Shown here piece by piece: positions 9,914 to 25,992 of a stretch of 64,000 bases of DNA (its first letter is position 1; each line of letters begins with the position of its first letter). The position numbers and the translations under genes were made by a program. The notes below the pieces were generated by a model. That model worked only from the letters and a program-made list of their open reading frames with translations. It was not told the origin of the DNA and searched no databases. This stretch comes from Candidatus Rokuibacteriota bacterium (GTDB lineage: Bacteria; Methylomirabilota; Methylomirabilia; Rokubacteriales; DASRDR01). The DNA is taken from the NCBI GenBank assembly GCA_044866005.1, contig JBIOTN010000067.1, forward strand, positions 4,899 through 68,898, read 5' to 3'.

Positions 9914-12900
9914 ATGCAGTGTGCCCGCTGTCACGTCGAAAACCGCGAGGGCCGCCGCTTCTGTGCCGAGTGCGGCGCGCCGCTTTCGCTCGCCTGCCCC
10001 GCGTGCGGCTTCACGAACGAAGCGGGCGAGAAGTTCTGTGGCGGCTGCGGCCAGCGCCTGGCCGCGCCCGCCGTCGGCGAGCCCACCGCCGCCCCGGGCC
10101 GCGCCGTTTCCCGCGACGACCACCAGCGGCGCATCACCTCCTACACGCCGAAGCACCTCGCCGAGAAGATCCTGAAGGCGCGCTCGGCCCTGGAAGGTGA
10201 ACGCCGCCACGTGAGCGTCCTGTTCGCCGACCTGGCGGGCTTCACGACGCTCGCGGAGCGGCTGGATCCGGAAGACGTACACCAGATCATCGACCGCTGC
10301 TTCGAGTCGATCACCGCGGAGGTGCACCGCTTCGAAGGGACGATCAACCAGTACACGGGGGACGGGGTGATGGCGCTCTTCGGCGCACCCATCGCCCACG
10401 AGGACGGCCCGCGGCGCGCGGTCCACGCGGCGCTGGCAATCCAGCGCGCCGTGCGGGAGGAGAGCCGGAAACTGCAGGCGGAGCGAGGGCTCACGCTCGA
10501 CCTGCGCGTGGGAGTCCACACGGGGCCGGTGGTCGTCGGTCGCATCGGGGACGACCTGCGCATGGACTACACGGCGGTCGGCGACACGACCAACCTGGCC
10601 GCCCGGCTCCAACAACTCGCGCGCCCGGGAAGCGTGGTGGTGAGCGAGGCCACCCATCGGCTGGTCGGCGGCTTCTTCGAGACGCGGGACCTCGGCGACG
10701 TGGCGGTGAAGGGGCACGACCCGGTCCGCGCGTTCGAGGTCCTGCGGCCGCGGGGCCGGCGAACCCGACTCGACGTGGCCGTCGAGCGCGGCCTCACACC
10801 GCTCGTCGGCCGATCGCGCGAGCTGGCCATTCTCCTCGACCGGTTCGGGGAGGTCAAGGCGGGGCGGGGGCAGGTCGTCTTCGTCGCCGGCGAGGCCGGG
10901 ATCGGGAAGTCCAGACTCGTGCTGGAGTTCCGGCGGGCGCTGGCTCAAGCGGGAGCCGGCGTGACCTGGCTCGAAGGGCGGTGCGTCTCCTTCGGGCAGT
11001 CGATCCCCTTTCTGCCCTTGATCGATCAGCTCCGCGAGAACTTCAGAATCGAAGAGTTCGACGGCGAGCCCGAGATCATCGCCAAGGTCGAGCACGGAAT
11101 GCGCCGGATGGGCGAGCTGGAGGCGCACATCCCGTACGTGCGGTATCTGCTCGCGGTGGACCCGGGCGACCCGGCGATCTCCGCCATGGACGCCGCGGCG
11201 CGGCGGAAGAGGATGTTCGACGCCTGCCGTGCGCTCGCCATCCGTGGCGCGGCGCTCCGGCCCGTCGTCTTCGTCTTCGAGGACCTCCACTGGATCGACA
11301 CGAGCACCGAGGAGTACCTCGGCTCGCTGATGGACTCGGTGGCGGGCGTCCCACTGCTGCTGATCCTCACCTATCGGGTCGGGTACACGCCGCCGTTCGG
11401 CGGCCGGAGCTTCCACACGCCCCTCACCCTCCACAGCCTCTCCGAGACCGAGAGCCTGACGTTGGCCGGGCGGGTCCTCGGCAGCGACGACTTCCCCGAC
11501 GAGCTCAAGACCGCGCTGATGGAGAAGGCCGAAGGGGTGCCGCTCTTCGTCGAAGAGGTCACGAAGACACTCCTCGATCTCGGCGTGCTGCGTCGCGAGG
11601 ACGGCGAGTACCGCATGGTGAAGGGCGTATCCGAGGTGAGCGTTCCGGACACCATTCAGGGGATCATCATGGCCCGGTTGGATCGGCTCGGGGAGGACGG
11701 GAAACGGGCGGTCCAGCTCGCGTCGGTCATCGGGCGGCAGTTCCTGGTCCGGCTTCTGGAGCGGATCGCCGGCCTGAGCGGGCGGCTGGAGGGCCTGCTG
11801 GCGGAGCTCAAAGCGCTGGAGATCATCTACGAGCATGCGCTCTTCCCCGAGCCGGCGTACATCTTCAAGCACGCGGTGATCCAGGACGTCGCCTACAACA
11901 GCCTCCTGGTTCAGCGCCGCAAGGAACTCCACAAGGCCGTCGGGTACGCCATCGAGGAGCTGTACGCCGACCGCCTCGCCGAGCACCACGAGGAGCTGGC
12001 GCACCACTTCGCCCAGGGGGAGGAGTGGCGGAAGGCGATGGAGTACAGCCTGGTGGCCGGGGACAGGGCCGCCCAGAAGTTCGCGAACGCGGAAGCGGCG
12101 AAGCACTACACCCGGACACTGCAGGCGGCCTATGCCGTCTCGCCGGTACCGGAGCCCGAGGTCCTGGCGGGGTTACACGTCAAACACGCGGCGGTGCGCA
12201 CGCTCCTGGCCGACTACGAAGGGGCGGTATCGCAGTACGGCGCGGCCCGGGCCCTGATCCAGCAGACCGGCAACCGGAAGCAGGAAGTCGAGATCCTGAT
12301 GGGGCTCGGCTTCGCCTACAGCTTTTATCACAAGCCGGAGCCGGCCTTGGAGGCCGTGGACGAGGCCCTCGCCATCGCGCGGGAGATCGACGACCGCAGC
12401 TCGCAGGCCGCCTGCCTCGTCACGCGTGCCGAGGCGGTCGCCTCCGGCTACGGGCGGGTCATCGAGGCGGCGTCGAACATCGAGGAAGCGGTCCGGCTGT
12501 CCGAAGAGATCCCGAACCCGCTCCTGCGGGCGCGGGTGCTCGTCTTCACGGGCCGGATCGTCCAGTGGCGGGGGGAATTCGACCGCGCGATCATGGTGCT
12601 GGAGGAAGGGACCGAGTTCGCGCGCCGCGAGCACTTGGGATTCCTCTTCGGGCTCGGTCTCTTCACGCTCGGACACGCCCACCTGGCGAAGGGCGATTTC
12701 GAAGCGGCCCTTCGGCGCTACCACGAGCTCCGCCACTATGCCGAGGGGGCCGGGGACAAGCTCTACATCGTGCGCGCCCCGAACTGTCTCGCGGGCGCCC
12801 ACCTGGAACTCTACGACCTGGACGAGGCGATCCGTCTGAACGAAGAGGGGGACGACGTGGCGAAGCGGCTCTGGCCCTGGCCGGAGCCGCGCGGCCACTC

Positions 12901-13468
12901 GCTGGTGAAGCTCGGACTGGCCCATCTCTGGCGAGGCGACCACGGCCGCGCGCAACAGGCGTTCCAGCAGGCGTGGGGACTGCTGGAGGACGATCCGTGG
13001 GCCCGCTGGCGCTGGCACGTCCCGCTCCTGGCGGCGCTCGGCGAGATGGCGCTCACCGAGCACCGGCTCGAGGAGGCCTGGGGGCATGCCACTCGTTCCC
13101 TGGAGCTGGCCACCGAGTCGGACTCGCGCAAGCACGTGACCCGGGCTCAGCGTCTTCGAGGCCAGATCCTGGCGGCGCAGGGACGGCTCGAGGACGGGGC
13201 ACGCGCGCTCGAGGTGTCGGTCACGCTGGCCGAAGCCCTGGGGACGCCGCGCGAGGTGTGGATGGGGAAAGCGGCGCTCGCGGACGTGCTGGCGCGACTG
13301 GGCCGGGACAGGGACGCCGAGCGGCTCCTCGCCCAGGCCGCCGGAACGATCGACTCGATCGCGGAAAAGCTCACCACGCCGGGCCTGCGCCGGAGCTTCC
13401 TCGGCGGCGGCCCGGTCCTGGACGTCTACCGAGCGCTGGGGCGCCGCCCGCCTCCGAACGCGCCATGA
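9914..13468 (+). CDS. Class III adenylate/guanylate cyclase with N-terminal double zinc-ribbon and C-terminal AAA-ATPase/TPR regulatory region
   Basis: CxxC-x-CxxC ribbons; cyclase catalytic motifs (VLFADLAGFT..GDGVMALFG); Walker A GEAGIGKS; 1184 aa. Confidence 0.9.
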   Translation: MQCARCHVENREGRRFCAECGAPLSLACPACGFTNEAGEKFCGGCGQRLAAPAVGEPTAAPGRAVSRDDHQRRITSYTPKHLAEKILKARSALEGERRHVSVLFADLAGFTTLAERLDPEDVHQIIDRCFESITAEVHRFEGTINQYTGDGVMALFGAPIAHEDGPRRAVHAALAIQRAVREESRKLQAERGLTLDLRVGVHTGPVVVGRIGDDLRMDYTAVGDTTNLAARLQQLARPGSVVVSEATHRLVGGFFETRDLGDVAVKGHDPVRAFEVLRPRGRRTRLDVAVERGLTPLVGRSRELAILLDRFGEVKAGRGQVVFVAGEAGIGKSRLVLEFRRALAQAGAGVTWLEGRCVSFGQSIPFLPLIDQLRENFRIEEFDGEPEIIAKVEHGMRRMGELEAHIPYVRYLLAVDPGDPAISAMDAAARRKRMFDACRALAIRGAALRPVVFVFEDLHWIDTSTEEYLGSLMDSVAGVPLLLILTYRVGYTPPFGGRSFHTPLTLHSLSETESLTLAGRVLGSDDFPDELKTALMEKAEGVPLFVEEVTKTLLDLGVLRREDGEYRMVKGVSEVSVPDTIQGIIMARLDRLGEDGKRAVQLASVIGRQFLVRLLERIAGLSGRLEGLLAELKALEIIYEHALFPEPAYIFKHAVIQDVAYNSLLVQRRKELHKAVGYAIEELYADRLAEHHEELAHHFAQGEEWRKAMEYSLVAGDRAAQKFANAEAAKHYTRTLQAAYAVSPVPEPEVLAGLHVKHAAVRTLLADYEGAVSQYGAARALIQQTGNRKQEVEILMGLGFAYSFYHKPEPALEAVDEALAIAREIDDRSSQAACLVTRAEAVASGYGRVIEAASNIEEAVRLSEEIPNPLLRARVLVFTGRIVQWRGEFDRAIMVLEEGTEFARREHLGFLFGLGLFTLGHAHLAKGDFEAALRRYHELRHYAEGAGDKLYIVRAPNCLAGAHLELYDLDEAIRLNEEGDDVAKRLWPWPEPRGHSLVKLGLAHLWRGDHGRAQQAFQQAWGLLEDDPWARWRWHVPLLAALGEMALTEHRLEEAWGHATRSLELATESDSRKHVTRAQRLRGQILAAQGRLEDGARALEVSVTLAEALGTPREVWMGKAALADVLARLGRDRDAERLLAQAAGTIDSIAEKLTTPGLRRSFLGGGPVLDVYRALGRRPPPNAP

Positions 13469-13686
13469 TCCTCCCGCGGGGAGACCCAGAACAGATCGCC
13501 GGTCCGAGAAGCGAGCAGCCCCAGGCGAAAGGGAAGAGGCTCACCGCAGCGGGAGCGAGCCGGGCCGAGACCCGAGCAGATCAAGGACGCAGGACCGAGC
13601 GCGGCCGAGGCGTATGCCGCATACGTTGAGGCCGCGCGAAGGCCGAGGACGCCGAGATGCGACGGGTATCGGCCCGGCTGGCCCGG

Positions 13687-15534
13687 CTACGCCATGAAGC
13701 GGTCGTAGCGGCCGTAGTCCCGCGCCGCATCCATGAACCACTGGACGATCTCGGGCCGGGAGCGCGGCGGGATCTCGCACGACGTCGACAGGATGAACGC
13801 GGAGTGGCGCGCGGCCGTGTCCACGCAGCGGCGCACCTCGGCCTCGATCTCGGCCCGGGTGGCGCGCTCGAAGAGCGTCGCGTCCACGTTGCCGATCGCC
13901 ACGACGCGCTTCTTCGCCACGTCCATGAACCGGGCGAGCTGGTCGACCTTGAGGGCGGGGTCCCCCTGCTGGTCGAGGTCGAAGGAGATCGTCGTGAAGC
14001 CGCACTGGATCAGGTCGTCGTAGATCGGGTACGTGGTGCCGCAGATGTGGGTCGTGAGCCCGACCTTCTTCGCCTTGAAGTGCTCGACCAGCTCCTTGTG
14101 GTACGGGGCGATGAACTCGCGGTAGTTGTCCGGCGAGATCAGGCTGATGGAGGCGGTGGGCTCCGAGAACGAGAGCCCGATCTTGCTCTGCACGATCTCG
14201 TCGCCCCACCGCTTGCAGAACTCCGTGGTGAAGCGCATCAGCTCGTGGATGAAGCCCGGGTCCTCGAACGTGTCGAGGAGCATCACCTCCGGGTTCCGCA
14301 TCAGCATGGCGATCGTCCACGGGCCGACCGCGACCGCCCCGACGGCCGTGGGGAGCTTCGCCGCCATCAGGCCCTCGCAGACCTCGAGGAAGGCCGGGAG
14401 GCGTCCGTCCCGCCGCGGGTCCGGGATCTCGAGCGTCGCCAGCTTCGCCTTGTCCTCCTGCAGCACGTGGGTCTCGATCGACGGCACGACGTAGTCGGAG
14501 TACTTGACCCGGCAGCCGGTCGCCTCGGCCTCCTTGGCCAGGTCGTTGTAGGCGAGCACGACGTCGGGCTGGTGGCGCTCGTAGTAGTTGAGCATCGCCT
14601 GCACGGCCTTGCCCGGCGTGGTGCAGAACTCTTCGATGGAGAGCCCGTCCAGCGTCCCCGCGTACGAGGCCACGATCGGGTAGACGGGCACGCGGTCGGC
14701 GAACGAGCGCTTGTAGGCGGCGACGACCCGGTCGCGCCCCGTGTACTGCGCCTTGCCCTTCTCCACGTCCCAGAGCTTGTTGACCTCCATGTACTTCGGG
14801 GGAAGCTTCGCCTCGTACTCCATGAACTGGGTGATGGGATAGCGGATCCCGCCCTTGTGGGTGCCTTCCAGCCCCTCGACGATCTCGCCCATCTTCGCCC
14901 ACGGGATGGTGAAGGCCATCTCGTGGTCCTGCGTCTGCCCGAAGATCCGGTCGCCGGAGCAGGGGAGGATCACCTGCGGCTCGCCGGTCTGCATGGTCGT
15001 GACGATGATGTCGGCGCAGACGATCCGGCCCTGGAACGACGAGGCGAGCCGGCCGCCGCGCTTCCACAGCGCCGCCTGCGTGAGCCGCATGACCTGGGCC
15101 GGGTTCGCGTAGACGACGACCAGGTCCGGCTCGAACGTCGTGCGGTCGAGCGGGCTGACGAGGAGACAGCTGTACTCGCCCGGCGCGAACTTGTCCACGG
15201 CCGCTTCGGACCGCGCGCCCGCCTCCTTCGTCTCCGTGTACATTCCCTCGCAGAGCGTGCCCGAGGTGTAGAGGTGGGTCGGTTTCTCGAAGCCGAGCGC
15301 GGTGATCCCGAGCGAGCAGATGTGGTCCTCGCGGGTCAGCGCGATCGTCCAGCCGTAGCGCCGCGCCATGTCGATGACCTGGCAGTTCATGGAGAGCTTG
15401 CCGAAGTCGCGGGCGGGTCGCTTCGCCTTCTCGGGGATCGGCTCGCCCGGGCGCAGCATCCGGACCGCGACCGGGAAGGTCTGCGGCCGGAGGTAGGTCT
15501 GCAGGGCCTGGTCGGCGCTCTTGGGGTCCACCAT
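13687..15534 (-). CDS. Fusion protein: N-terminal DUF169 plus C-terminal uroporphyrinogen-decarboxylase (URO-D/MtaA)-family domain
   Basis: Both halves are recognisable by sequence; 615 aa. Confidence 0.75.
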   Translation of the reverse strand: MVDPKSADQALQTYLRPQTFPVAVRMLRPGEPIPEKAKRPARDFGKLSMNCQVIDMARRYGWTIALTREDHICSLGITALGFEKPTHLYTSGTLCEGMYTETKEAGARSEAAVDKFAPGEYSCLLVSPLDRTTFEPDLVVVYANPAQVMRLTQAALWKRGGRLASSFQGRIVCADIIVTTMQTGEPQVILPCSGDRIFGQTQDHEMAFTIPWAKMGEIVEGLEGTHKGGIRYPITQFMEYEAKLPPKYMEVNKLWDVEKGKAQYTGRDRVVAAYKRSFADRVPVYPIVASYAGTLDGLSIEEFCTTPGKAVQAMLNYYERHQPDVVLAYNDLAKEAEATGCRVKYSDYVVPSIETHVLQEDKAKLATLEIPDPRRDGRLPAFLEVCEGLMAAKLPTAVGAVAVGPWTIAMLMRNPEVMLLDTFEDPGFIHELMRFTTEFCKRWGDEIVQSKIGLSFSEPTASISLISPDNYREFIAPYHKELVEHFKAKKVGLTTHICGTTYPIYDDLIQCGFTTISFDLDQQGDPALKVDQLARFMDVAKKRVVAIGNVDATLFERATRAEIEAEVRRCVDTAARHSAFILSTSCEIPPRSRPEIVQWFMDAARDYGRYDRFMA

Positions 15535-15729
15535 CGACTCTCCTTCGCTTCGCCGCGGCGTCGTTCAAACGCGCGAAATTTCGACTCCGAGCGTACTCGT
15601 CGGCCTCTGCGGTGTCAACCGCGCGCCGCGCTCGAGGCCGCGCACCCGCGCCGGGGAGACCGGTATACTGGGGCGGGGGCGGCCAAGACATCCCGTGCCC
15701 GTTTGCGCGAGCCGGAGAGGAGGAGCGCG

Positions 15730-16197
15730 ATGGCCGAGCTGATCCACGTCTCCCGGGTCAGGATCGTGAAGGACAAGGGGCCGGTGCGGCGCGCCTACAT
15801 CGAGCAGTTCCCGGACCCGGTGCGCTACGGCGTCCACGGCGGCATCAAAGACTTCTACGGGGTGGACCCGGTGGAGGAGCTGCCCACCACCCTCGACCAC
15901 GTGATCGCGGCGGTCGCAGGGTGAATGACCGGGACGCTAGCCGGGGCGCTAGCGGCGCGGAAGATCCCGACCCAGCCCGATCGCCTCTCCTCCGAGGTCG
16001 AGGGATTCATCGAGAACGTGGACGGCAAGCCCTTGATCACCCGGATCAAGGTCCACTACAAGCTCCGGGTCCCTCCGGGCAAGCGCGCAGAAGCGCTGCG
16101 GGCGATCGAGGTGCATGAGCAGGGCTGCCCGGCGTCCCAATCAGTCAGGCGCGGCATCGCGATCGAGTGGGACGGCGACGTGCACGAGGAGGCTTGA
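15730..16197 (+). CDS. OsmC/Ohr-family peroxiredoxin with in-frame TGA (15922-15924) at the peroxidatic Cys position; candidate selenoprotein
   Basis: The two ORFs 15730-15924 and 15925-16197 are in frame. The motif HVIAAVAG-[TGA]-MTGTLAGALAAR matches OsmC AAHAAC-FSMALS, and the second Cys GCPASQS is conserved. A hairpin lies 10 nt after the TGA. GAGGAGGAG RBS. Confidence 0.65.
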
Positions 16198-16314
16198 GCG
16201 CCACTCGGCCCGTCGCCGGCTCGCGGCCGCGCGCGCAGTGTTATCATTGAAGCGTCGAGGAGGCGTCGGGCCGCGTCGCGGGCCCGCAAACCAGTGGTTG
16301 CCCGGAGGTCCGAG

Positions 16315-17196
16315 ATGGACATCGGCACGTTGCGGTTGAAGGTCGGCTTCGCGGAGATGTTGAAGGGCGGCGTCGTCATGGACGTGACGACCGCCGAGCA
16401 GGCCCGGATCGCGGAGGACGCCGGCGCCTGCGCGGTGATGGCGCTGGAGCGGGTCCCCGCCGACATCCGCCGGGAGGGCGGGGTCGCCCGGATGGCCAGC
16501 GTCCGGAAGGTCCGCGAGATCATCGACGCCGTCTCCATCCCCGTCATGGCGAAGTGCCGCATCGGGCACTTCGTCGAGGCCCAGATCCTCCAGGCGCTCG
16601 GCGTGGACTACATCGACGAGTCCGAGGTCCTGACCCCCGCGGACGAGCACTTCCACGTGGACAAGTTCGCCTTCACCGTGCCCTTCGTGTGCGGCGCGCG
16701 GGACCTCGGCGAGGCCCTCCGCCGGATCGGGGAAGGGGCGGCGATGATCCGCACCAAGGGCGAGGCGGGCTCGGGGAACATCGTGGAGGCCGTGCGGCAC
16801 ATCCGAAAGGTCATCGGCCACATCAAGCGGCTCACGACGCTGGGCCCGGAGGAGCTGATGGCCGAGGCCAAGGAGCTCGGGGCGCCCTACGAGCTCGTCC
16901 GGTGGGTCGCGCGCGAGGGCCGGCTGCCGGTGCCGAACTTCGCGGCGGGCGGCGTGGCGACCCCCGCCGACGCGGCGCTCATGATGCAGCTCGGCGCCGA
17001 GGCGATCTTCGTCGGCTCGGGCGTCTTCAAGTCCGCCGACCCCGCCGCGCGCGCCCGCGCCATCGTCCAGGCGACGACCCACTACCGCGACCCGGACGTC
17101 CTGGCGAAGGTCTCGGAGGCGCTCGGCGAGGCGATGCCGGGCATCGAGACCTCCAAGCTGCCGGCGTCCGAACGGCTCGAGACGCGCGGCTGGTGA
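16315..17196 (+). CDS. pdxS: Pyridoxal 5'-phosphate synthase, lyase subunit
   Basis: Highly conserved PdxS sequence. Confidence 0.95.
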
Positions 17197-17279
17197 CCCC
17201 GGGCGCGGGCCCCGCGGCCGACGTCCCGGTCGAGGTGGACCCGGCCGGCCGGCCGTCGCGGGCGCCGGGTCGAGAGGGG

Positions 17280-17867
17280 ATGCGGATCGGGGTCCTGGCG
17301 CTCCAGGGGGACTTCGCCGCGCACACGCGGGCGCTCGGTCGCCTGGGCATCGAGGCGCCGGAAGTCCGGAAACCCGCCGAGCTCGCGCGCCTCGACGGCC
17401 TCGTCCTCCCCGGCGGCGAGAGCACGACCCTGCTCACGCTGATGGGCGAGGAGTTCCCGCCGGCGCTCCGCGCCTTCCACGCGGCCGGCAAGCCGCTCTA
17501 CGGGACCTGCGCGGGATTGATCGTGCTCGCCCGGGAGGTGCTCGGCCCGCGCCAGCCCTCCGTCGGGCTGATCGACCTCACGGTCGAGCGCAACGCGTAC
17601 GGCCGCCAGCGCGAGTCCTTCGAAGCGGAGGGCGAGGCGCGGCTCGGCGGCGCGCCCGCGCCGCTGCGCATGGTCTTCATCCGCGCCCCGCGTATCGTCC
17701 GCGCGGGGCCCGGCGTGACGACGCTCGCCACGTGGAAGGACGAGCCCGTGCTGGTCCGGGAGGGGCCGGTCCTGGCGAGCACGTTCCACCCCGAGTTGAC
17801 GGACGAGCTCGCCATCCACCGGTACCTGGCGCAGATGGTCGTGGCGGCCGGCCGGCCGTCGGGCTGA
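17280..17867 (+). CDS. pdxT: Pyridoxal 5'-phosphate synthase, glutaminase subunit
   Basis: Conserved PdxT with GTCAG catalytic Cys. Confidence 0.95.
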   Translation: MRIGVLALQGDFAAHTRALGRLGIEAPEVRKPAELARLDGLVLPGGESTTLLTLMGEEFPPALRAFHAAGKPLYGTCAGLIVLAREVLGPRQPSVGLIDLTVERNAYGRQRESFEAEGEARLGGAPAPLRMVFIRAPRIVRAGPGVTTLATWKDEPVLVREGPVLASTFHPELTDELAIHRYLAQMVVAAGRPSG

Positions 17868-17908
17868 CCGCCGCCACCTCGGTCCGTGCGAGGGCTCGGG
17901 AGGTGGCC

Positions 17909-19651
17909 GTGAGCCGATCGGGCAAGGCGGCGCGCGGGGCGCGGCGGCGACCGCGGGCGGCCCGGTCCCGGGCCGCGCGGCGGGGCAAGCCGCTCGAGCG
18001 GGGTCTCGCGCGGGGCGCGGCCAACTACGTCCCGCTCACGCCGATCTCGTTCCTCGCCCGCGCCGCCGGCATCTATCCGACCAAGGCGGCGGTGATCCAC
18101 GGCGAGCGGACGTACAGCTATGCCGAGCTCTTCGCCCGCTGCCGCCGGCTCGCCTCGGCCCTCGTCCGGCGCGGCATCGGCCGGGGGGACACCGTCGCGA
18201 TCATGGCCCCGAACGTCCCGGCCATGCTCGAGGCGCACTACGGCGTGCCGATGGCCGGGGCGGTGCTGAACGCGCTGAACTACCGCCTCGACGCCCGATC
18301 CATCGCCTTCATGCTCGAGCACGGCCGGGCCAGGCTCCTGATCACGGACACGGAGTTCTCGGCCACGATCGGCCCGGCGCTCGCCCTGGTGAAGCGTCCG
18401 CTGCCCGTCATCGACATCGACGACCCGCTCGGCGGCGAGGACCGGGCCGGGAAGTTGCTCGGGGAGACGGACTACGAGGCCTTCCTGCGGGAGGGCGATC
18501 CCGAGTTCGCCTGGCCGGCCCCCGCCGACGAGTGGCAGGCGATCTGCCTCCTCTACACCTCGGGGACGACGGGGGACCCCAAAGGCGTCGTCTACCACCA
18601 TCGCGGCGCCTACCTGAACGCCCTCGGCAACGCGCTCGCGTTCGGCCTGTCGCCGCGCACCGTCTATCTCTGGACCCTGCCGATGTTCCACTGTAGCGGC
18701 TGGACCTACACCTGGGCCGTCACGGCGGTCGGCGGGACGCACGTCTGCCTCCGCCGCGTGGATCCGGCGCGGGTCTTCCAGGCGATCCAGGCCCACGGCG
18801 TCACGCACATGTGCGGGGCCCCCGTCGTCATGACCATGCTCGTCCACGCGCCCGCCGAGGCGAAGGTGACATTCGACCACGTCGTGGAGATCGCGACCGG
18901 CGGCGCGGCCCCGCCGTCGGCCGTCATCCGGGCGATGGAGGCGATGGGCTTCCGGGTCACGCACCTCTACGGCCTCACCGAGACCTACGGGCCGGCCACG
19001 CTCTGCGCCTGGCAGGCGGGCTGGGACGGCCTCGGGCTCGCGGAGCGCGCCGCCCTCATGGCGCGCCAGGGGGTGGCCTACCCGACGCTCGGCGCGGTCA
19101 CGGTCGCCGAGCCCCGGACGCTGCGCCCGGTGCCGCGCGACGGCCAGACGATCGGCGAGGTGATGATCCGCGGCAACACCGTGATGAAGGGCTACCTCGG
19201 GAACCCGCGCGCCACGACCGAGGCGTTCCGGGGCGGGTGGTTCCACACCGGCGACCTGGCCGTCTGGCATCCCGACGGCTACATCGAGATCAAGGACCGG
19301 TCGAAGGACATCATCATCTCCGGCGGCGAGAACATCTCCTCGCTGGAGGTCGAGGAGGTCCTCTACCGCCATCCCGCGGTGATGGAGGCCGCCGTCGTCG
19401 CGAAGCCGGACGAGAAGTGGGGAGAGACGCCCTGCGCCTTCGTCACGCCGAAGCCCGGCGCCGGCGAGGTCACCGCCCGGGAGATCGTCGACTGGTGCCG
19501 CGCGAACCTGGCCCGGTTCAAGGTGCCGCGGCACGTCGTGTTCGGGCCGCTCCCCAAGACCTCGACCGGGAAGATCCAGAAGTTCGTCCTGCGCGAGCGG
19601 GCGAAGACGGGGCTCCCGTCGGAGAGCGGAGGCGGCGGGCGCGCGGAGTGA
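17909..19651 (+). CDS. AMP-dependent acyl-CoA synthetase/ligase
   Basis: AMP-binding motifs YTSGTTGDPKG and GWFHTGD; GTG start after GGAGGTGG. The start is uncertain. Confidence 0.85.
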   Translation: MSRSGKAARGARRRPRAARSRAARRGKPLERGLARGAANYVPLTPISFLARAAGIYPTKAAVIHGERTYSYAELFARCRRLASALVRRGIGRGDTVAIMAPNVPAMLEAHYGVPMAGAVLNALNYRLDARSIAFMLEHGRARLLITDTEFSATIGPALALVKRPLPVIDIDDPLGGEDRAGKLLGETDYEAFLREGDPEFAWPAPADEWQAICLLYTSGTTGDPKGVVYHHRGAYLNALGNALAFGLSPRTVYLWTLPMFHCSGWTYTWAVTAVGGTHVCLRRVDPARVFQAIQAHGVTHMCGAPVVMTMLVHAPAEAKVTFDHVVEIATGGAAPPSAVIRAMEAMGFRVTHLYGLTETYGPATLCAWQAGWDGLGLAERAALMARQGVAYPTLGAVTVAEPRTLRPVPRDGQTIGEVMIRGNTVMKGYLGNPRATTEAFRGGWFHTGDLAVWHPDGYIEIKDRSKDIIISGGENISSLEVEEVLYRHPAVMEAAVVAKPDEKWGETPCAFVTPKPGAGEVTAREIVDWCRANLARFKVPRHVVFGPLPKTSTGKIQKFVLRERAKTGLPSESGGGGRAE

Positions 19652-19680
19652 TGCCGCGCCGGCCGGGGGAAGGCCGAGCG

Positions 19681-20550
19681 TCAGGACGGCAGCCCGAACA
19701 GCGAGCTGACCCGCTGCGCCTCGACCATCGCCGCCATCTCCGCGTCGGGAGGACGGCGGCGGACGCGGCTCGCGGCCTCCAGGACCCGGGGAAGCAAGGC
19801 CAGGTCTGCCGGCGTGTCGAGGAAGACATCGGGCAGGCCGAGCGCCCAGTGCACCGCCCGGTCGATGTCGGCCGGCTCCTCGAGCGGCTGGTACCAGGTG
19901 GTGCGCGTCCGGTCTGCCGTGGCCCAGGGCCCGCGCGCGATGGCCTTGATGACCTGGACCGCGACCTGCCGCTCGCGGCAGATGCTCAGCAGTGCCTCGA
20001 CGTCCGCGCGGTAGCGCTCGCTCTGGGCCATCAAGAAGTTATACGGCAGCAGCACCGTGTCGAAGTCGAAGCGCGCGAGGCTGCGCTTGTGCATGGCGGG
20101 GATCGTCCAGCCGTGACCGGTCACCCCGATAAAGCGCGCGAGCCCCTGCTCGCGGGCCTCGATCGCCGCCTCCAGGGCGCCGCCCGGTCCCATGGCCTGC
20201 TCCCACTCGTCGGGGTGGCCCAGCGAGTGCAGCTGGATCAGGTCGACGTGGTCCACCCGGAGCCGGTCGAGCGAGCGGTGAAGCTCCTCGCGGGCGCCGT
20301 CGCGGGTGCGCATGGCGGTCTTCGTCGCGAGGAAGAACTCCTTCCGGTGCCCGGCCATCCACGGGCCGATGCGGAGCTCGGAGTCCCCGTACCGCGCCGC
20401 GGTGTCGATGTGGTTGACGCCGTGCCGCAAGAGCAGGTCCAGGGCGCGGTCGGCCTCCGCCTGCGGGCACCGGGCGAGGGCGGCCGCCCCGAAGATGGTC
20501 ACCGTGCTGAGGTGACCGGTGCGTCCGAAGGGTCGCCGTTCGATCATCAC
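19681..20550 (-). CDS. Aldo/keto reductase
   Basis: AKR-family sequence; 16 nt downstream of copA on the same strand. Confidence 0.85.
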
Positions 20551-20566
20551 GCGGCTCCTCGCGGCC

Positions 20567-23014
20567 CTAGAGCGCCAGCTTCCGCAGGCGGAGGGCGTTG
20601 CCGACGACGGAGACGGAGCTGACGCTCATCGCCGCGCTGGCGACCACCGGGCTCAAGAGCAGACCGAAGACGGGGTAGAGGACGCCGGCGGCGAGCGGGA
20701 CGCCGAGCGAGTTGTAGACGAAGGCGAAGAAGAGGTTCTGCCGGATGTTCCGCATCGTGGCCCGGCTCAGCCGGCGGGCCCGCACGATGCCCCGCAGGTC
20801 GCCCTTGACCAGGGTCACCGCGGCGCTCTCCATGGCGACGTCCGTCCCCGTCCCCATCGCGATCCCCACGTCGGCCTGGGCCAGCGCCGGCGCGTCGTTG
20901 ATGCCGTCACCCGCCATCGCCACCCGCCGGCCCTCGGCCTGGAGGCGCCGGACGACCTCGCCCTTCGCCGCCGGCAGGACCTCCGCCTCGACGCGGTCGA
21001 TCCCGAGCGCGCGGGCGACGGCCTCGGCGGTCGTCCGGCTGTCGCCGGTGAGCATGACGACCTGGAGGCCCTCCTCGCGGAGCAGGCGGATCGCCTCGGC
21101 GCTGGACGGCTTGATGGGGTCGGCGACGCCGAGCAGGCCGGCCGCCCGGCCCTCCACGACGACGAACACGACGGTCTGCCCGTCCTGGCGGAGCTTCTCC
21201 GCCTGACCGGCCAGGACCCCGGGCGCGACGGCCAGCTCGTCCAGCAGCCGCGCGTTCCCGAGCGCCACCGCCCGGCCGTCCACGCGGCCCACCACGCCCT
21301 TGCCGGTGAGCGACCGGAACTCGGTCAGCTCGCCGAGCGCGAGGCCGCGCGCGGTGGCCCCCGCGACGATCGCCGCGGCGAGCGGGTGCTCGCTCCCCCG
21401 CTCGAGCGTCGCGCCGAGGCGCAGGAGCTCCCCGTCGGCGAGGGGCGGCAGGACCACGATGGAAGTCAGGCGCGGCTTGCCCTCCGTGAGGGTGCCGGTC
21501 TTGTCCACCACCACCGTGTCCACCCGCTCCATGATCTCCAGGGCCTCGGCGTGCTTGACGAGCACGCCCGCCGTCGCGCCCCGGCCCGTGGCGACCATGA
21601 TGGACATCGGCGTGGCCAGGCCGAGCGCGCACGGGCAGGCGATGATCAGCACGGCCACCGCGTTCACGAGCGCGTAGGCCAGGCGCGGCTCGGGCCCGAC
21701 GAGCGCCCACGCGGCGAAGGTCAGCCCCGCGATCGCCACGACCGCCGGCACGAAGTACGAGGAGACCACGTCGGCCAGACGCTGGATCGGCGCGCGCGTG
21801 CGCTGGGCTTCGCCGACCATGCGCACGATCTGGGCGAGGAGCGTGTCGCTGCCGACCCGCTCGGCCCGCATGACGAAGCTCCCCGTGCCGTTCACGGTTC
21901 CGCCGGTCACCCGGCTCCCCGGCGTCTTCTCCACGGGGACGGGCTCGCCCGTCAGCATGGACTCGTCGACGGCGCTCGCGCCCTCGAGCACGACGCCGTC
22001 CACGGGGACGCGCTCGCCCGGGCGGACGCGGAGCCGGTCGCCGGGGGCCACCTGCTCGAGCGGCACGTCTTCCTCCGCCCCGGCCTCGCCGAGGCGTCGC
22101 GCCGTCTTCGGCGCCAGCCCCAGCAGCGCGCGGATCGCGCTGCTGGTCCGGCTGCGGGCGCGGAGCTCGAGGACCTGCCCCAGCAGCACCAGCACCGTGA
22201 TGATCGCCGCCGGCTCGAAGTAGACGGGAACCTCGCCGCCGTGGCCGCGGAAGGCGGGCGGGATGAGCCCGGGCGCGAGCGTCGCCGCGACGCTGTACCC
22301 GTACGCCATGCCGATCCCGAGCGCGATGAGCGTGAACATGTTCAGGCTGCGGTTCACGATCGAGGCATAGCCGCGCTGGAAGAGCGGCCAGCCGCCCCAG
22401 AGGACCACCGGCGTGGCGAGGGCCAGCTCGAGCCAGGTCACCGCGCGCATCGACAGCGCGCGCTGGACCGGCTGCCCGGGCCACATGTCCGACATCGCGA
22501 GGACCAGGATGGGGACGGAGAGGAGCAGGCTCACCCGGAAGCGGCGGGACATGTCCACGAGCTCCGGGCTCACCTCGGCCTCGGCCGTCACCGTCCGGGG
22601 CTCGAGCGCCATCCCGCAGATCGGGCAGAGGCCCGGCTCGGGCCGGACGATCTCCGGGTGCATCGGGCAGAAGTACTCGGTCCGGAATGCGGGTGCCGCG
22701 GCGACCGGCGGCTCGAGCGCCATCCCGCACTTCGGGCACGCGCCGGGTCGGGGCTCGCGGACCTCGGGGTCCATCGGGCACGTGTAGCCGCCGGCCGTCG
22801 CCTCCGCCGCCGCGGCGCTCCGGCGCTCGCCGGAGGGCGCCACGTAGCGCCCGGGGTCTGCGCGGAACCGCTCGAGGCAGGAGGGGTGACAGAAGAGGTA
22901 CGTCCGGCCGCCGTAGGCGTGGCGTCCGGCGGCCTCGGCCGGCTCCACCGTCATCCCGCAGACGGGGTCCGTCGCCGCCTGTCCGATCGCCTGCGCCCGC
23001 TCGTCCCCTGTCAT
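20567..23014 (-). CDS. copA: Cu(I)-translocating P1B-type ATPase with N-terminal YHS/TRASH-type metal-binding domains
   Basis: CPC, DKTGT and GDGINDAP motifs; the N-terminus has CGM...FC YHS-like motifs rather than a classical HMA domain; RBS GAGGTGA. Confidence 0.9.
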
Positions 23015-23187
23015 GGCGTCACCTCTACAGAGGGTATACCCGGGCCCGGAGATGCGGGAGCCCCGCGCGGGGGCCGCGCCCGGCCGGCGGAGTGCAAGAC
23101 GCTGCCGGCGCCGGGCGCCGGATGTAGAATGAGCGGGTCCGCGGCGACTGCTGTACTCCGCCTTCGGAGTCTTGGAGGACCACGCGC

Positions 23188-24636
23188 ATGACGACCGCAC
23201 CCAGCGCCAGCTACAGCATGACGATGCGGCTCGAGATCCGGAACCGCCCGGGGATGCTCGGGAAGATCGCCTCCGCGATCGGGAAGGCGGGCGGGGACAT
23301 CGGCGCCGTGGACCTGGTCCAGGTGGGCGCGGGCGTGCTCACGCGCGACATCACGTTCAACGCGCGGGACGAGGAGCACGGCCAGTCGGTCGTCGGGGCG
23401 GTGCGCCGGGTCGCCGGGGTTCGGGTCGTCGCGGTGTCGGACCGCACGTTCCTCATGCACCTGGGCGGCAAGATCGAGGTGCGGGGGAAGGTGCCGGTGA
23501 AGACGCGCGACGACCTGTCGATGGCGTACACGCCGGGGGTGGCGCGCGTCTGCCTGGCCATCCGCGACGAGCCGCAGACGGCCTACGCGCTGACCATCAA
23601 GCAGAACACGGTCGCCGTCGTCACCGACGGCACCGCGGTGCTGGGGCTGGGCGACATCGGGCCGAAGGCCGCCATGCCCGTGATGGAAGGCAAGGCGCTC
23701 CTGTTCAAGGAGTTCGCCGGCGTGGATGCCTTCCCCCTCTGCCTGGCGACCAAGGACGTGGACGAGATCGTCGCGATCGTCCGCGCGGTGTCGCCGGTCT
23801 TCGGGGGCATCAACCTGGAGGACATCGCCGCCCCGCGCTGCTTCGAGATCGAGGAGCGGCTCCGCAAGGAGCTCGACATCCCGGTCTTCCACGACGACCA
23901 GCACGGGACCGCGGTCGTGGTCCTGGCCGCGCTGATCAACGCGCTCAAGGTGGTCAAGAAGAGGCTCGCGGACGTGCGCGTCGTCTTCTCCGGCGCGGGC
24001 GCCTCGGGGATCGCGACGGCGAAGCTCCTCATGGCGGTCGGCTGCCGGCACATCATCGGCTGTGACCGCTCGGGCACGCTCTACCGGGGTCGCCGCGAGA
24101 ACATGAATCCGGTCAAGGCGTGGTTCGCCGAGCACACGAACGAAAAGCGCGTGCGGGGCAGCTGCGGCGACGCCCTCCGCGGCGCCGATGTCTACATCGG
24201 GCTGTCCGGGCCCGGGGTGGTGACGCCGCGGGAGGTGCGGCGGATGGCGCGCCACGCGGTCGTCTTCGCCATGGCGAACCCGGTGCCCGAGATCATGCCG
24301 GAGGACGTCCAGGGGATGGTCCGCGTCATGGCCACGGGCCGGTCGGACTACGCGAACCAGATCAACAACGTGCTCTGCTTCCCGGGCTTCTTCCGCGGCC
24401 TGCTGGACGTGCGGGCGCGGCTGGTGAACGACGAGATGAAGATCGCGGCCGCCCGCGGCATCGCCTCCATCATCGCGGCGAGCGAGCTGGGCGAGGAGTA
24501 CATCATCCCCTCGGTCTTCGACAAGCGCGTGGTCGAGGCGGTGGCGGACGGGGTCGCCCGCGCCGCCGTGCAGACCGGGGTGGCGCGTCGCCGCCGTCGG
24601 CTCCCCGCGGGGGGCGCCGGCCGGAACGGCGCGTAG
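23188..24636 (+). CDS. NAD(P)-dependent malic enzyme with N-terminal ACT domain
   Basis: Malic-enzyme NAD-binding domain; ACT-like N-terminus. Confidence 0.9.
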
Positions 24637-24679
24637 CCGCCCCCGCGGGCGGAGCCGGGCCGGCCGGCGAGGCCACGGG

Positions 24680-25252
24680 ATGCGCCGGCTCGCGGGACCG
24701 TCGATCGTGGCGCTCGCGCTCCTGGCCGGCGTCCCCCGGAGCGGGCCGGCCGCCCCACCGGGCCTCCCGCGACTCGGGGCCGCCCCGAACTTCGCCCTGA
24801 CGACCCACCTGAATGACCGCGTCTGGCTCACCCAGCTCCGCGGCCGCGCCGTCGTCCTCACGTTTACCTGCGCGACATGTGGAGCGTGTCCCACCGTCGT
24901 GCCGACCCTCGCCGAGGTGGCGCGCGGGCTGGGCGAGGCGGCGGGCGGACGGGTCTTCTTCGTCGCGGTGACGGTCGACCCGCGCCATGACAGCGCCGCC
25001 GTCCTCCGGGACTTCGCCCGGGCGCACGGTCTGAGCCCGCTGGCGTGGCTTCTCCTCACCGGGACGCCGGCCGAGGTGGAGGTGGTGGCCCGGCGCTTCG
25101 GCGTGGAGGCCCGGGCCGACGCCTTGTCCGAGGCCGCCTGCCCGGTGGTGCTGATCGACCGCACCGGCACGATCCGCGTGCGCTACCGGGGCCCGGAGCT
25201 CGGCCGCCTCCGCTTCGACCTGGTGCAGCTTCTCGCCGAGCCTGCCGGCTAG
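24680..25252 (+). CDS. SCO1/SenC-family copper chaperone (thioredoxin fold)
   Basis: CxxxC motif FTCATCGAC; signal/anchor sequence. Confidence 0.8.
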   Translation: MRRLAGPSIVALALLAGVPRSGPAAPPGLPRLGAAPNFALTTHLNDRVWLTQLRGRAVVLTFTCATCGACPTVVPTLAEVARGLGEAAGGRVFFVAVTVDPRHDSAAVLRDFARAHGLSPLAWLLLTGTPAEVEVVARRFGVEARADALSEAACPVVLIDRTGTIRVRYRGPELGRLRFDLVQLLAEPAG

Positions 25253-25275
25253 CCGGTCAAAAGACTTGACCTTCC
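25203..25275. repeat. Direct repeat copy 1 (about 73 bp). Covers the 3' end of the SCO1 gene and a TTGACC box.
   Basis: About 92% identical to 25993-26066. Confidence 0.8.
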
Positions 25276-25387
25276 GGTCCTCACAGCACAGAGCTCCAGC
25301 CTTCCTTGGCGCTTGCGGGCGCAAAAGGAAGGGACTGCCGCATGGCGGCGTGGTAGGATATTTCATCATACCCGGGAAGGTTGCCAC

Positions 25388-25950: not shown

Positions 25951-25992
25951 CGGCGTGATCCACGGCGGTTCGCGTTGCCCGCACAGTCCGGG

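What the first reader, a model, noticed from the sequence alone, without database searches (positions are those of the whole stretch)
15730..16197. OsmC-family peroxiredoxin with TGA replacing the peroxidatic Cys
The sequence reads ...LDHVIAAVAG-[TGA]-MTGTLAGALAARKI... In OsmC/Ohr proteins the first catalytic Cys sits exactly here (E. coli OsmC ...AAHAAC FSMALS...). The resolving Cys (GCPASQS) is retained downstream.

A 7-bp stem CGCUAGC/GCUAGCG with loop CGGGGC (15935-15954) starts 10 nt after the TGA. The ORF track splits the gene into two in-frame pieces.
Basis: partly seen in the sequence, partly recalled or inferred. Interest (0 to 1): 0.7.

Follow-up and report, generated by a model that had tools for sequence, protein, structure and literature searches.

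The report
Selenocysteine-encoding OsmC-like peroxidase gene
A small antioxidant-type (OsmC-like) gene in this Methylomirabilota/Rokubacteria-like genome uses an in-frame UGA to insert selenocysteine at its reactive site; this is real and widely conserved, but selenium versions of OsmC-like proteins were first described in 2005.

Summary
Window 15730-16197 (+) is one 155-codon OsmC-domain gene interrupted by TGA at 15922-15924. That codon aligns with the first catalytic Cys of solved OsmC proteins, and the second Cys (Cys133) is kept.

The TGA is not an error. It recurs in five independent assemblies of the same gene. It is also present in 79 of the 80 best-matching loci from a one-genome-per-species collection, labelled as at least five phyla; the remaining locus has TGT. 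Cys occupies the column in about 70 of 150 family representatives.

A hairpin that meets all four published bacterial SECIS criteria follows the TGA. Its stability alone is unremarkable in 71% GC DNA. However, silent sites in its stem are the most constrained in the gene, and it uses two CTA codons (0.2% of Leu codons in the window).

TGA is otherwise the usual stop here. Two more candidate selenoprotein genes lie in the window.

Best reading: a Sec-containing, OsmC-type thiol/selenol hydroperoxide reductase. Sec-containing OsmC-like proteins have been catalogued since 2005 and NCBI curates one such family, but this clade scores far below that model and is annotated publicly as 64 aa plus 90 aa fragments.

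Verdict: a new member of a known kind, of modest interest.

The parts
15730..16197 (+). Complete selenoprotein gene: 155 sense codons (Sec at codon 65) plus a TGA stop. It encodes an OsmC-domain protein.
   Evidence: Translation. Pfam OsmC PF02566, 43.6 bits against a cut-off of 27.5, residues 52-147. tblastn matches in 80 loci span query residues 1-154, across the TGA. GC3 is 0.95 upstream and 0.90 downstream of the TGA.
15719..15723 (+). Shine-Dalgarno-like GGAGG, 6 nt upstream of the ATG at 15730.
   Evidence: Read directly from the sequence. The same start is used in the public gene calls, as the 64-aa piece.
15922..15924 (+). In-frame UGA, proposed selenocysteine codon (residue 65), at the position of the peroxidatic Cys.
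   Evidence: It aligns with Cys59 of E. coli OsmC and the equivalent Cys of T. thermophilus OsmC. TGA is present in 79 of 80 orthologous loci and TGT in one. Cys is found in 70 of 150 family representatives, and 53 of 150 are fragments broken exactly at this column. The TGA is identical in five independent assemblies.
15935..15954 (+). bSECIS-like hairpin: 7-bp stem (15935-15941 with 15948-15954) and 6-nt loop CGGGGC (15942-15947). The loop starts 17 nt after the UGA.
   Evidence: -10.4 kcal/mol. It meets the four bSECIS criteria quoted in PMC13188914. The stem is 96.8% paired in 36 distinct type-A orthologues. Stem silent sites are the least variable of 54 such sites in the gene.
15937..15939 (+). 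Leu70 codon CTA in the 5' arm of the hairpin (a rare codon).
   Evidence: CTA accounts for 2 of 1099 Leu codons in 22 window genes. In orthologues this site is A or G in 38 of 39, both of which keep pairing with U.
15949..15951 (+). Leu74 codon CTA in the 3' arm of the hairpin (a rare codon).
   Evidence: Same basis as the first CTA. The site is A or G in 39 of 39 orthologues.
16126..16128 (+). TGC codon of Cys133, the proposed resolving Cys (motif GCPASQS).
   Evidence: It is invariant in alignments A1, A4, A5 and A7. It aligns with the GCPVS Cys of 1UKK and 1QWI.
16195..16197 (+). Ordinary TGA stop codon of the same gene.
   Evidence: About 30 of 42 coding-like ORFs in the window also end in TGA, so TGA is not reassigned genome-wide.

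Best explanation
Window 15730-16197 encodes one 155-residue selenoprotein of the OsmC/Ohr superfamily.

Decoding. During translation the UGA at codon 65 is decoded as selenocysteine. This would be done by the bacterial SelB/tRNA-Sec system, recruited by the hairpin that lies 10 nt downstream inside the coding sequence. The second UGA, at codon 156, has no such element and terminates.

Chemistry. Sec65 sits in the central helix where OsmC/Ohr enzymes carry their peroxidatic Cys. The proposed cycle has three steps. The selenolate attacks a hydroperoxide and becomes a selenenic acid. The conserved Cys133 then resolves this to a selenenylsulfide. Finally a dithiol reductant, lipoylated protein or thioredoxin-like, regenerates the enzyme.

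Shown here: gene continuity, family membership at Pfam and fold level, Cys/Sec correspondence at the catalytic column, conservation of the TGA and of a SECIS-compliant hairpin, and normal use of TGA as a stop.

Inferred: actual Sec insertion, the peroxidase activity, the substrate and the reductant.
For: Gene and family
- Pfam OsmC is above threshold.
- The best solved relatives are OsmC proteins: 1UKK at 1.6e-9, and 1QWI/1NYE. The TGA aligns on the first Cys and Cys133 on the second.
- An AF2 model of the 67%-identical Cys homologue P0002 (pLDDT 80.6) places residue 65 in helix 55-76. Its best Foldseek PDB hits are E. coli and T. thermophilus OsmC, probability 1.0.

TGA is real and selected
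- Five independent assemblies carry the TGA, with 0-1 mismatches in the gene.
- 79 of 80 loci from a one-genome-per-species collection carry TGA and one carries TGT. They are labelled Methylomirabilota/Rokubacteria, Acidobacteriota, Nitrospinota, Anaerolineae and Tectomicrobia.
- In about half of these loci the next codon is CUG, CUC or CUU, so restart at the AUG is not the general mechanism.
- Among 150 family representatives, 70 have Cys at the column and 53 are fragments cut exactly there.
- One protein called with 'W' at this column is TGA in its DNA.

SECIS
- The window hairpin meets all four published bSECIS criteria.
- 76 of 80 Sec forms have a compliant hairpin at or below -7.5 kcal/mol, against 15.7% of all TGA triplets in the window. 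Four of six Cys forms have only weak ones.
- Fourfold-degenerate sites inside the stem are the most constrained in the gene: ACG in 38 of 39 and GCG in 39 of 39. Loop and flank silent sites vary freely.
- Two CTA codons sit in the stem arms, against 0.2% CTA usage in the window.

Organism
- TGA is the common stop in the window.
- Two further in-frame TGAs have SECIS-like hairpins. One of them is conserved as TGA plus hairpin in 42 of 42 metagenome loci.
- Methylomirabilota are reported to use Sec (PMC13188914, PMC13582414).
Against: - No Sec machinery (selA, selB, selC, selD) is visible in the window. There are no tRNA genes at all and no Rfam hits.
- Hairpin stability is not significant against shuffles (z = +0.38).
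- Classical covariation is absent in the window's clade. There are only A-U to G-U changes and no double compensatory changes, and every shuffle equals the observed value. It is weak in the other clade.
- The hairpin shifts position between clades, so no single conserved structure covers the whole family.
- The protein is far below the curated cut-offs of OsmC (26.8 against 85.8), Ohr (13.8 against 88.85) and the OsmC-related selenoprotein family (22.6 against 95).
- No candidate catalytic Arg was identified, and no partner reductase gene is conserved nearby. The peroxidase chemistry is therefore by analogy only.
Confidence: 0.88

Rival explanations
1. Split gene. The TGA terminates a 64-residue N-terminal peptide. 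The adjacent AUG (UGAAUG) starts a separate 90-residue C-terminal peptide by termination-reinitiation, and the two pieces may assemble non-covalently. Public annotation implies this arrangement.
For: In the window and in all 39 type-A orthologues the TGA is immediately followed by ATG. Gene callers produce 64 aa + 90 aa.
Against: - In about 40 other orthologues the following codon is CUG, CUC or CUU.
- Met or Leu at that position is part of the conserved C/U-[ML]-T-G-T motif, also in uninterrupted Cys forms.
- No Shine-Dalgarno sequence precedes 15925.
- The break falls inside the central helix that carries the catalytic residue.
- The break always falls exactly on the catalytic Cys column.
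Confidence: 0.04
2. Artefact or decay: a sequencing or assembly error (TGC or TGT misread as TGA), or a recently inactivated pseudogene.
For: A single base separates TGA from TGC/TGT. One 1.3-kb contig has GGA (Gly) at this codon (L081), so point variants do occur.
Against: - The same TGA appears in five independent assemblies and in 79 of 80 loci from different species records.
- Protein-level conservation and high GC3 hold on both sides of the TGA.
- Silent-site constraint holds a hairpin downstream.
Confidence: 0.01
3. Non-Sec recoding. The UGA is read through by a near-cognate or suppressor tRNA (Trp, Cys or Gly), or TGA is reassigned as in genetic codes 4 or 25.
For: Some database entries translate this codon as W (P0013, P0014, P0250). 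The Sec machinery was not seen in the window.
Against: - TGA ends about 30 of 42 coding-like ORFs in the window, including this gene.
- The 'W' of P0013 is simply TGA translated under another code.
- The codon sits on a catalytic Cys column, which is the classic Cys/Sec signature.
- SECIS-compliant hairpins are enriched after Sec-form TGAs.
- The phylum is documented as using Sec.
Confidence: 0.04
4. It is a genuine selenoprotein but not a hydroperoxide reductase. The Sec/Cys pair would serve another redox or sulfur/selenium-transfer role, as in OsmC-superfamily members of unknown activity such as YhfA.
For: - Scores against the curated OsmC and Ohr peroxiredoxin models are far below their cut-offs.
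- The N-terminal region, about 55 residues, was not aligned to OsmC by HMMER.
- No catalytic Arg was identified.
- No conserved neighbouring genes suggest a pathway.
Against: - The closest solved relatives by sequence and by fold are peroxide-reducing OsmC proteins.
- Both catalytic Cys positions are conserved.
- An acidic residue, D56, is present in at least 90% of family members, nine residues before the Sec. This is near where Ohr has its catalytic Glu, ten residues before Cp (PMC5962072).
Confidence: 0.25

Closest known systems
OsmC-like selenoprotein family of Zhang, Fomenko & Gladyshev 2005 (Sargasso Sea; COG1765, motif UxxT), and NCBIfam NF041052 'OsmC-related (seleno)protein'
   Same: Both have the OsmC Pfam domain, Sec in place of the first redox Cys, a bacterial SECIS immediately downstream in the coding region, and Cys-containing homologues (PMC1088965, PMC9312934, PMC13188914).
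   Different: - The window protein scores 22.6 bits against a cut-off of 95 for NF041052.
- The best of 53 diverse family members reaches only E = 1.7e-8.
- The motif here is U-[ML]-T-G-T, with an invariant Gly at +3, rather than UxxT.
- The family is about 155 aa, with an N-terminal beta-strand region that HMMER did not align to OsmC.
- No published sequence of that family could be compared directly here.
OsmC peroxiredoxins (E. coli OsmC 1QWI/1NYE, T. thermophilus OsmC 1UKK; TIGR03562)
   Same: These are the best sequence and fold matches. The two catalytic Cys columns coincide (Cys59 with Sec65, Cys125 with Cys133), and the central-helix location of the reactive residue is the same.
   Different: - Sec replaces Cys.
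- The score is 26.8 bits against a cut-off of 85.8.
- The N-terminal region is divergent.
- No candidate was identified here for the catalytic Arg, which in OsmC lies in the Gly-rich loop (PMC5962072).
Ohr organic hydroperoxide resistance proteins (TIGR03561; XfOhr Cys61/Cys125/Arg19/Glu51)
   Same: Same superfamily fold. The two-Cys mechanism, with Cp in a central helix and an intramolecular resolving Cys, is the template for the proposed Sec mechanism (PMC5962072; Foldseek hits).
   Different: The sequence match is much weaker (13.8 bits against 88.85). Lipoyl-dependent reduction is unproven here.
Other Sec-containing thiol peroxidase-type proteins in bacteria (peroxiredoxin TxxU, Prx-like UxxC, AhpD-like CxxU, GPx UxxT)
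   Same: The principle is the same: the nucleophilic redox Cys is replaced by Sec, and Cys-form orthologues coexist (PMC1088965).
   Different: The folds are unrelated (thioredoxin or AhpD folds, not the OsmC barrel).

Membership tests
Bacterial selenoprotein gene | An in-frame UGA that aligns with Cys in homologues | tested here: met
   Cys occupies the column in 13 of the 16 full-length close homologues; the others carry G or W. It is also found in 70 of 150 family representatives, and TGT is present in L064.
Bacterial selenoprotein gene | UGA conserved in orthologues, with coding conservation on both sides | tested here: met
   79 of 80 loci from different species records carry TGA, and the tblastn matches span residues 1-154. 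Five independent assemblies of the same gene also carry it.
Bacterial selenoprotein gene | bSECIS downstream of the UGA: loop of 3-9 nt, stem of 4-16 bp, G in the first two loop positions, 16-37 nt from UGA to loop, and MFE at or below -7.5 kcal/mol (PMC13188914) | tested here: met
   The window hairpin has a 6-nt loop CGGGGC with G at position 2, a 7-bp stem, 17 nt spacing and -10.4 kcal/mol. 76 of 80 Sec forms comply. The background rate of 6.6-15.7% makes this supportive rather than decisive.
Bacterial selenoprotein gene | Selection on the RNA structure, independent of the protein | tested here: met
   Stem silent sites have the lowest entropy of 54 such sites. There are two CTA codons in the arms against 0.2% usage. 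Classical covariation tests were uninformative.
Bacterial selenoprotein gene | Sec machinery (selA, selB, selC/tRNA-Sec, selD) in the same genome | not testable with these tools
   The window contains no tRNA gene, and no sel gene was found among the 19 window ORFs scanned with Pfam; about half of the coding-like ORFs were not scanned. Indirect support comes from two more candidate selenoprotein genes in the window and from literature on Methylomirabilota.
Bacterial selenoprotein gene | Selenium demonstrated in the protein | not testable with these tools
   This needs 75Se labelling or mass spectrometry.
OsmC/Ohr superfamily (Pfam PF02566) | Domain match above the gathering threshold | tested here: met
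   43.6 bits against 27.5, E = 4.2e-11, residues 52-147.
OsmC/Ohr superfamily (Pfam PF02566) | OsmC fold | tested here: met
   Tested on the 67%-identical Cys homologue P0002, not on the window protein. The AF2 model has pLDDT 80.6. The top Foldseek PDB hits are all OsmC/Ohr, with probability 1.0 and TM about 0.55.
OsmC/Ohr thiol peroxidases | Two conserved catalytic Cys: Cp in the central helix and Cr in the second helix | tested here: met
   Sec65 aligns with Cp and Cys133 with Cr of 1UKK and 1QWI. Residue 65 lies in helix 55-76 of the model.
OsmC/Ohr thiol peroxidases | Catalytic Arg and Glu completing the triad | tested here: inconclusive
   D56 is present in at least 90% of family members, at position -9 from Sec. 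No conserved Arg could be assigned, because the N-terminal region is not aligned to OsmC.
TIGR03562 OsmC family peroxiredoxin | Score at or above the curated cut-off of 85.8 bits | tested here: not met
   26.8 bits. The best family member reaches E = 1.1e-8.
TIGR03561 Ohr family peroxiredoxin | Score at or above the curated cut-off of 88.85 bits | tested here: not met
   13.8 bits.
NF041052 OsmC-related (seleno)protein | Score at or above the curated cut-off of 95 bits | tested here: not met
   22.6 bits. 32 of 53 family members match, but the best reaches only E = 1.7e-8.

The most novel reading that the evidence does not exclude
This clade would be a separate selenoprotein family within the OsmC superfamily. 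It is about 155 aa, carries the motif G-U-[ML]-T-G-T...C-P, and is found in Methylomirabilota/Rokubacteria, Acidobacteriota, Nitrospinota, Chloroflexota and Tectomicrobia. It would have evolved independently of the catalogued 'OsmC-like' (UxxT, NF041052) family. Sec would be the predominant state among its closest members. Because no curated model captures it, it is systematically annotated as two fragments in hundreds of MAGs.
Probability: 0.55. Interest if true: 0.4.

Novelty: new member of a known kind. Interest (0 to 1): 0.3.

Why it matters
**Annotation.** Hundreds of public MAG records call this gene as a 64-aa orphan plus a 90-aa 'OsmC family protein'. A dedicated model with a Sec-aware rule would repair them. 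It would also improve selenoproteome counts for soil and groundwater phyla that are already reported to be unusually rich in selenoproteins.

**Biology.** The gene adds a second OsmC-superfamily lineage in which Sec has replaced the peroxidatic Cys. It comes with natural Cys, TGT-with-relic-hairpin and Gly variants, which are useful for studying Cys/Sec exchange and the evolution of a SECIS inside a coding sequence.

It does not change the understanding of Sec decoding or of OsmC chemistry.

Tried and rejected
- **Thermodynamic significance of the hairpin.** It is not significant (z = +0.38; 6.6% background), so it was not used as evidence on its own.
- **Covariation counting.** On the type-A stem every shuffle equals the observed value and there are no double changes. 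On the type-B stem one pair has G-C to A-U changes in two sequences, which is not convincing. I replaced this test with silent-site entropy and rare-codon analysis.
- **Lower stem** (15929-15931 with 15958-15960) from the MFE fold. Its silent sites vary freely, so it is not conserved, and it was dropped.
- **Rfam and tRNA scans** of the window found nothing.
- **Promoter and terminator scan** around the gene found nothing.
- **Synteny.**
  - None of the 80 orthologous loci has PdxS, PdxT or the DUF169-URO-D gene nearby.
  - No flanking gene cluster is shared by more than 15 of the 80 loci.
  - Context therefore gives no clue to function.
The Cys homologue P0002 was modelled instead.
- **DNA of P0002** was not retrievable.
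- **Other same-frame TGA junctions** at 6966, 47873 and 52188 were examined. They are ordinary adjacent genes.
- **TGA at 37415 (+).** It passed the GC3 filter, but it overlaps the minus-strand VKOR-type gene at 36808-38250 and its hairpin is weak (-6.0). I judged it spurious.
Full report
**1. What is in the sequence**

Window 15730-16197 (+) reads as one frame of 155 sense codons. It is interrupted once, by TGA at 15922-15924, and it ends in TGA at 16195-16197. A GGAGG lies 6 nt before the ATG at 15730.

The mechanical ORF list splits the gene at the internal TGA. Public gene calls on near-identical contigs give a 64-aa product and a 90-aa product.

With Cys substituted for the stop, the product matches Pfam OsmC. 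The score is 43.6 bits against a gathering score of 27.5, over residues 52-147.

- Stem: 15935-15941 paired with 15948-15954.
- Loop: 15942-15947, CGGGGC.
- Position: it starts 10 nt after the TGA.
- Stability: -10.4 kcal/mol.

**2. The TGA sits on the catalytic Cys column**

HMMER against the PDB gives T. thermophilus OsmC 1UKK (E = 1.6e-9) and E. coli OsmC 1QWI/1NYE as the only real hits.
- The substituted residue 65 aligns with the Cys of AAHAGC-FSMALA and AAHAAC-FSMALS.
- Cys133 (GCPASQS) aligns with the Cys of GCPVS.
- A family profile gives the same ranking.

According to PMC5962072 the first Cys of Ohr/OsmC enzymes is the peroxidatic one and lies in a central helix. The second Cys resolves it into an intramolecular disulfide.

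An AlphaFold2 model of the 67%-identical Cys homologue P0002 has pLDDT 80.6 and puts residue 65 in helix 55-76. Its best Foldseek PDB matches are E. coli and T. thermophilus OsmC, followed by Ohr proteins, all with probability 1.0.

**3. The TGA is real and conserved**

The exact 90-aa C-terminal product occurs in NCBI and in several Logan assemblies. In five independent assemblies the whole 468-nt gene differs by 0-1 bases and always has TGA at codon 65.

A scan of one genome per species returned 485 relatives, and I kept the best 80. Of these, 79 have TGA at the homologous codon and one (L064) has TGT. The tblastn similarity runs from residue 1 to about residue 154, across the stop. The hosts are labelled Methylomirabilota/Rokubacteria/NC10, Acidobacteriota (Terriglobia, Bryobacterales), Nitrospinota, Anaerolineae and Tectomicrobia.

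In the protein database, most of the 120 best-scoring relatives listed (of 448) are 89-91-aa truncations. About 17 relatives are full length. Among those full-length relatives:
- Thirteen of the 16 aligned carry Cys at the column.
- One 'Trp' entry (P0013) is TGA in its DNA.
- One 'Gly' entry (P0001) is a genuine GGA on a single 1.3-kb contig.

An exhaustive profile search of 1.84 billion cluster representatives found 769 relatives. The best 150 break down as follows:
- 70 have Cys at the column.
- 28 are N-terminal fragments that end just before it.
- 25 are C-terminal fragments that begin just after it.

This is the classic Cys/Sec pair signature.

**4. Alternatives to Sec**

- Reassignment of TGA is excluded. 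About 30 of 42 coding-like ORFs in the window end in TGA, and so does this gene.
- Restart at the adjacent AUG is possible in the window's own clade, where all 39 sequences read UGA-AUG. It cannot be the general mechanism, because about 40 other orthologues read UGA-CUG, UGA-CUC or UGA-CUU. Met or Leu at that position also belongs to the conserved motif in uninterrupted Cys forms.

**5. The hairpin**

The published bSECIS model (PMC13188914) has four criteria:
- a loop of 3-9 nt;
- a stem of 4-16 bp;
- a G in the first two loop positions;
- 16-37 nt between the UGA and the loop, with MFE at or below -7.5 kcal/mol.

The window hairpin has a 6-nt loop with G at position 2, a 7-bp stem, 17 nt spacing and -10.4 kcal/mol. 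It meets all four.

This alone is weak evidence in 71% GC DNA. The local fold is no more stable than shuffles (z = +0.38). Of the 1269 TGA triplets in the window, 6.6% are followed by an equally good compliant hairpin. Classical covariation counts are also uninformative.

Three other observations do support selection on the structure.

(a) Silent-site constraint. I examined 54 fourfold-degenerate sites of the gene across 39 type-A orthologues.
- The two least variable sites are inside the stem: Thr69 ACG in 38 of 39, and Ala73 GCG in 39 of 39.
- Silent sites in the loop and flanks vary freely.

(b) Rare codons.
- The two Leu codons in the stem arms are only CTA or CTG, both of which pair with U.
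- In the window they are both CTA.
- CTA is used for 2 of 1099 Leu codons in 22 other window genes.

(c) Contrast between Sec and Cys forms.
- 76 of 80 Sec forms have a compliant hairpin at or below -7.5 kcal/mol (median -10.4), against 15.7% for background TGAs.
- Four of six Cys forms have only weak hairpins (-0.5 to -5.0).
- The two TGT forms (L064, L088) and the GGA variant (L081) keep the hairpin, as expected for recent changes away from TGA.
- Caveat: the Cys forms come from lower-GC DNA.

The hairpin also shifts between clades, which is common for SECIS elements embedded in coding sequence:
- Type A: the loop starts 17 nt after the UGA.
- Type B (GGCGCGC-UGGAN-GCGCGCC): the loop starts about 25 nt after the UGA.
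- Bryobacterales variant: the loop starts 19 nt after the UGA.

**6. Does the organism decode Sec?**

The window has no tRNA genes and no Rfam hits. No sel genes appear among the 19 ORFs I scanned with Pfam, which is about half of the coding-like ORFs.

Only five TGAs in the window have coding-like GC3 for 40 codons on both sides. Three of them, at 15922, 35230 and 43458, carry compliant hairpins.
- The site at 43458 lies in a BNR/Ycf48-like repeat protein with the context ...PDCF-U-GW. TGA is conserved there in 42 of 42 distinct metagenome loci. It is followed by a hairpin GUGGGC-GGUCU-GCCCAC whose arms vary between loci in matching fashion.
- The site at 35230 converts the GMxCxxC motif of a secreted HMA domain into GMVCQA-U.

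Methylomirabilota are reported to carry Sec-type hydrogenases, and one MAG is reported to hold 63 selenoprotein genes. Sec decoding in this organism is therefore well supported, but indirectly.

**7. Mechanism**

Shown here:
- a continuous OsmC-fold gene;
- Sec on the Cp column and a retained Cr;
- a conserved SECIS-compliant element.

Inferred by homology (PMC5962072):
- SelB/tRNA-Sec decodes UGA65.
- The selenolate reduces a hydroperoxide and becomes a selenenic acid.
- Cys133 forms a selenenylsulfide.
- A dithiol donor recycles the enzyme.

D56 is present in at least 90% of family members and lies nine residues before the Sec, close to where Ohr has its catalytic Glu. I could not assign a catalytic Arg. 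No neighbouring gene is conserved: the best is shared by 15 of 80 loci. None of the 80 loci shares the window's PdxS/PdxT or DUF169-URO-D neighbours. Substrate and reductant therefore remain open.

**8. Comparison with what is known**

An 'OsmC-like protein' selenoprotein family was described in 2005. It was based on three Sargasso Sea sequences, assigned to COG1765, with motif UxxT. It is still listed in the 2022 and 2026 catalogues. NCBI curates NF041052, 'OsmC-related (seleno)protein'.

The window protein scores as follows:

| NCBIfam model | Score (bits) | Curated cut-off (bits) |
|---|---|---|
| NF041052 OsmC-related (seleno)protein | 22.6 | 95 |
| TIGR03562 OsmC | 26.8 | 85.8 |
| TIGR03561 Ohr | 13.8 | 88.85 |

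Across 53 diverse full-length members of its family, the best E-values are only 1.7e-8 for NF041052 and 1.1e-8 for TIGR03562. The motif is U-[ML]-T-G-T, with an invariant Gly at +3, and not UxxT.

It therefore works like the known OsmC-like selenoproteins and belongs to the same superfamily. It is not a member of any curated subfamily, which explains the fragmentary public annotation.

**9. Verdict**

The observation and the interpretation are both confirmed. The kind of thing is known: Sec replacing the nucleophilic Cys of a thiol peroxidase-type protein, including OsmC-like ones. This clade appears to be an uncatalogued member. Interest is modest (0.3). The two other candidate selenoprotein genes noticed in the window are recorded separately, and the BNR-repeat one may be of more interest than the finding itself.

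Noticed in passing
window 42837-43739 (+), in-frame TGA at 43458-43460; hairpin about 43473-43493: This is a second likely selenoprotein gene. It encodes a secreted BNR/Asp-box (Ycf48/Sortilin-Vps10-like) repeat protein with the context ...NPDCF-U-GWK..., a C-x-U motif.

- More than 100 database relatives stop exactly at ...PDCF.
- 42 of 42 distinct metagenome loci carry TGA there.
- They share a conserved hairpin GUGGGC-GGUCU-GCCCAC (median -12 kcal/mol, loop 18 nt after the UGA) whose arms vary between loci in matching fashion.
- The few full-length relatives have L, R or G at this column rather than Cys.
- No BNR or Ycf48-like family appears in the 2026 selenoprotein review (PMC13188914), so this may be an undescribed selenoprotein family.

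Sources.
   Followed up: yes
window 35107-35415 (+), in-frame TGA at 35230-35232: This is a third candidate selenoprotein. It has a signal peptide plus a heavy-metal-associated (HMA, MerP/CopZ-like) domain in which the metal-binding GMxCxxC reads GMVCQA-U.

- The fused product hits Pfam HMA at 9e-13.
- The downstream hairpin is CAGCCUU-GGA-GAGGCUG, at -8.4 kcal/mol, with its loop 23 nt after the UGA.
- Conservation in relatives was not checked.

Sources.
   Followed up: partly
window about 27100-48300: The two extra TGA candidates lie in a copper and periplasmic-redox neighbourhood:

- an HMA-bearing P-type ATPase (27123-29537);
- MacB/FtsX-type ABC transporter genes (30347-33493);
- DsbD-like membrane proteins (34085-35083 and 40831-41598);
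- an SPW-VKOR fusion (36808-38250, minus strand);
- a multicopper oxidase (43721-45265);
- a DUF411-like CHTALVGGYVVEGHVP protein (47537-47875), assigned by eye and not scanned.

Sources.
   Followed up: partly
window 13687-15534 (-): The gene transcribed divergently from the OsmC-like gene is a 615-aa fusion of DUF169 (COG2043) and a uroporphyrinogen-decarboxylase/MtaA-like URO-D domain. Both domains match at about 1e-60. Its GC3 of 0.98 is the highest in the window. It is not linked to the OsmC-like gene in any of the 80 orthologous loci.

Sources.
   Followed up: no
L081 (ENA k141_1497368), L064 and L088: These are natural variants at the Sec codon.

- One 82%-identical contig has GGA (Gly) and keeps the type-A hairpin (-8.8 kcal/mol).
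- Two related Cys forms use TGT and keep a type-B-like hairpin (-7.5 and -9.9).
- The TGC Cys forms have only weak hairpins.

This looks like recent conversion away from TGA with a relic SECIS.

Sources.
   Followed up: partly
L083 (GCA_044870165.1, JBIOYM010000085.1) and L084-L087: A public MAG contig is 98.8% identical to window 10313-26197. Its gene calls split the OsmC-like gene into 64 aa + 90 aa. NCBI and JGI name the 89-90-aa pieces 'OsmC family protein' or 'organic hydroperoxide reductase OsmC/OhrA'. This is a systematic mis-annotation across hundreds of entries.

Sources.
   Followed up: yes
window 9914-13468 (+): A large 1184-aa signalling protein: double zinc ribbon, adenylate/guanylate cyclase domain, AAA_16 ATPase and MalT-like TPR region.
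   Followed up: no
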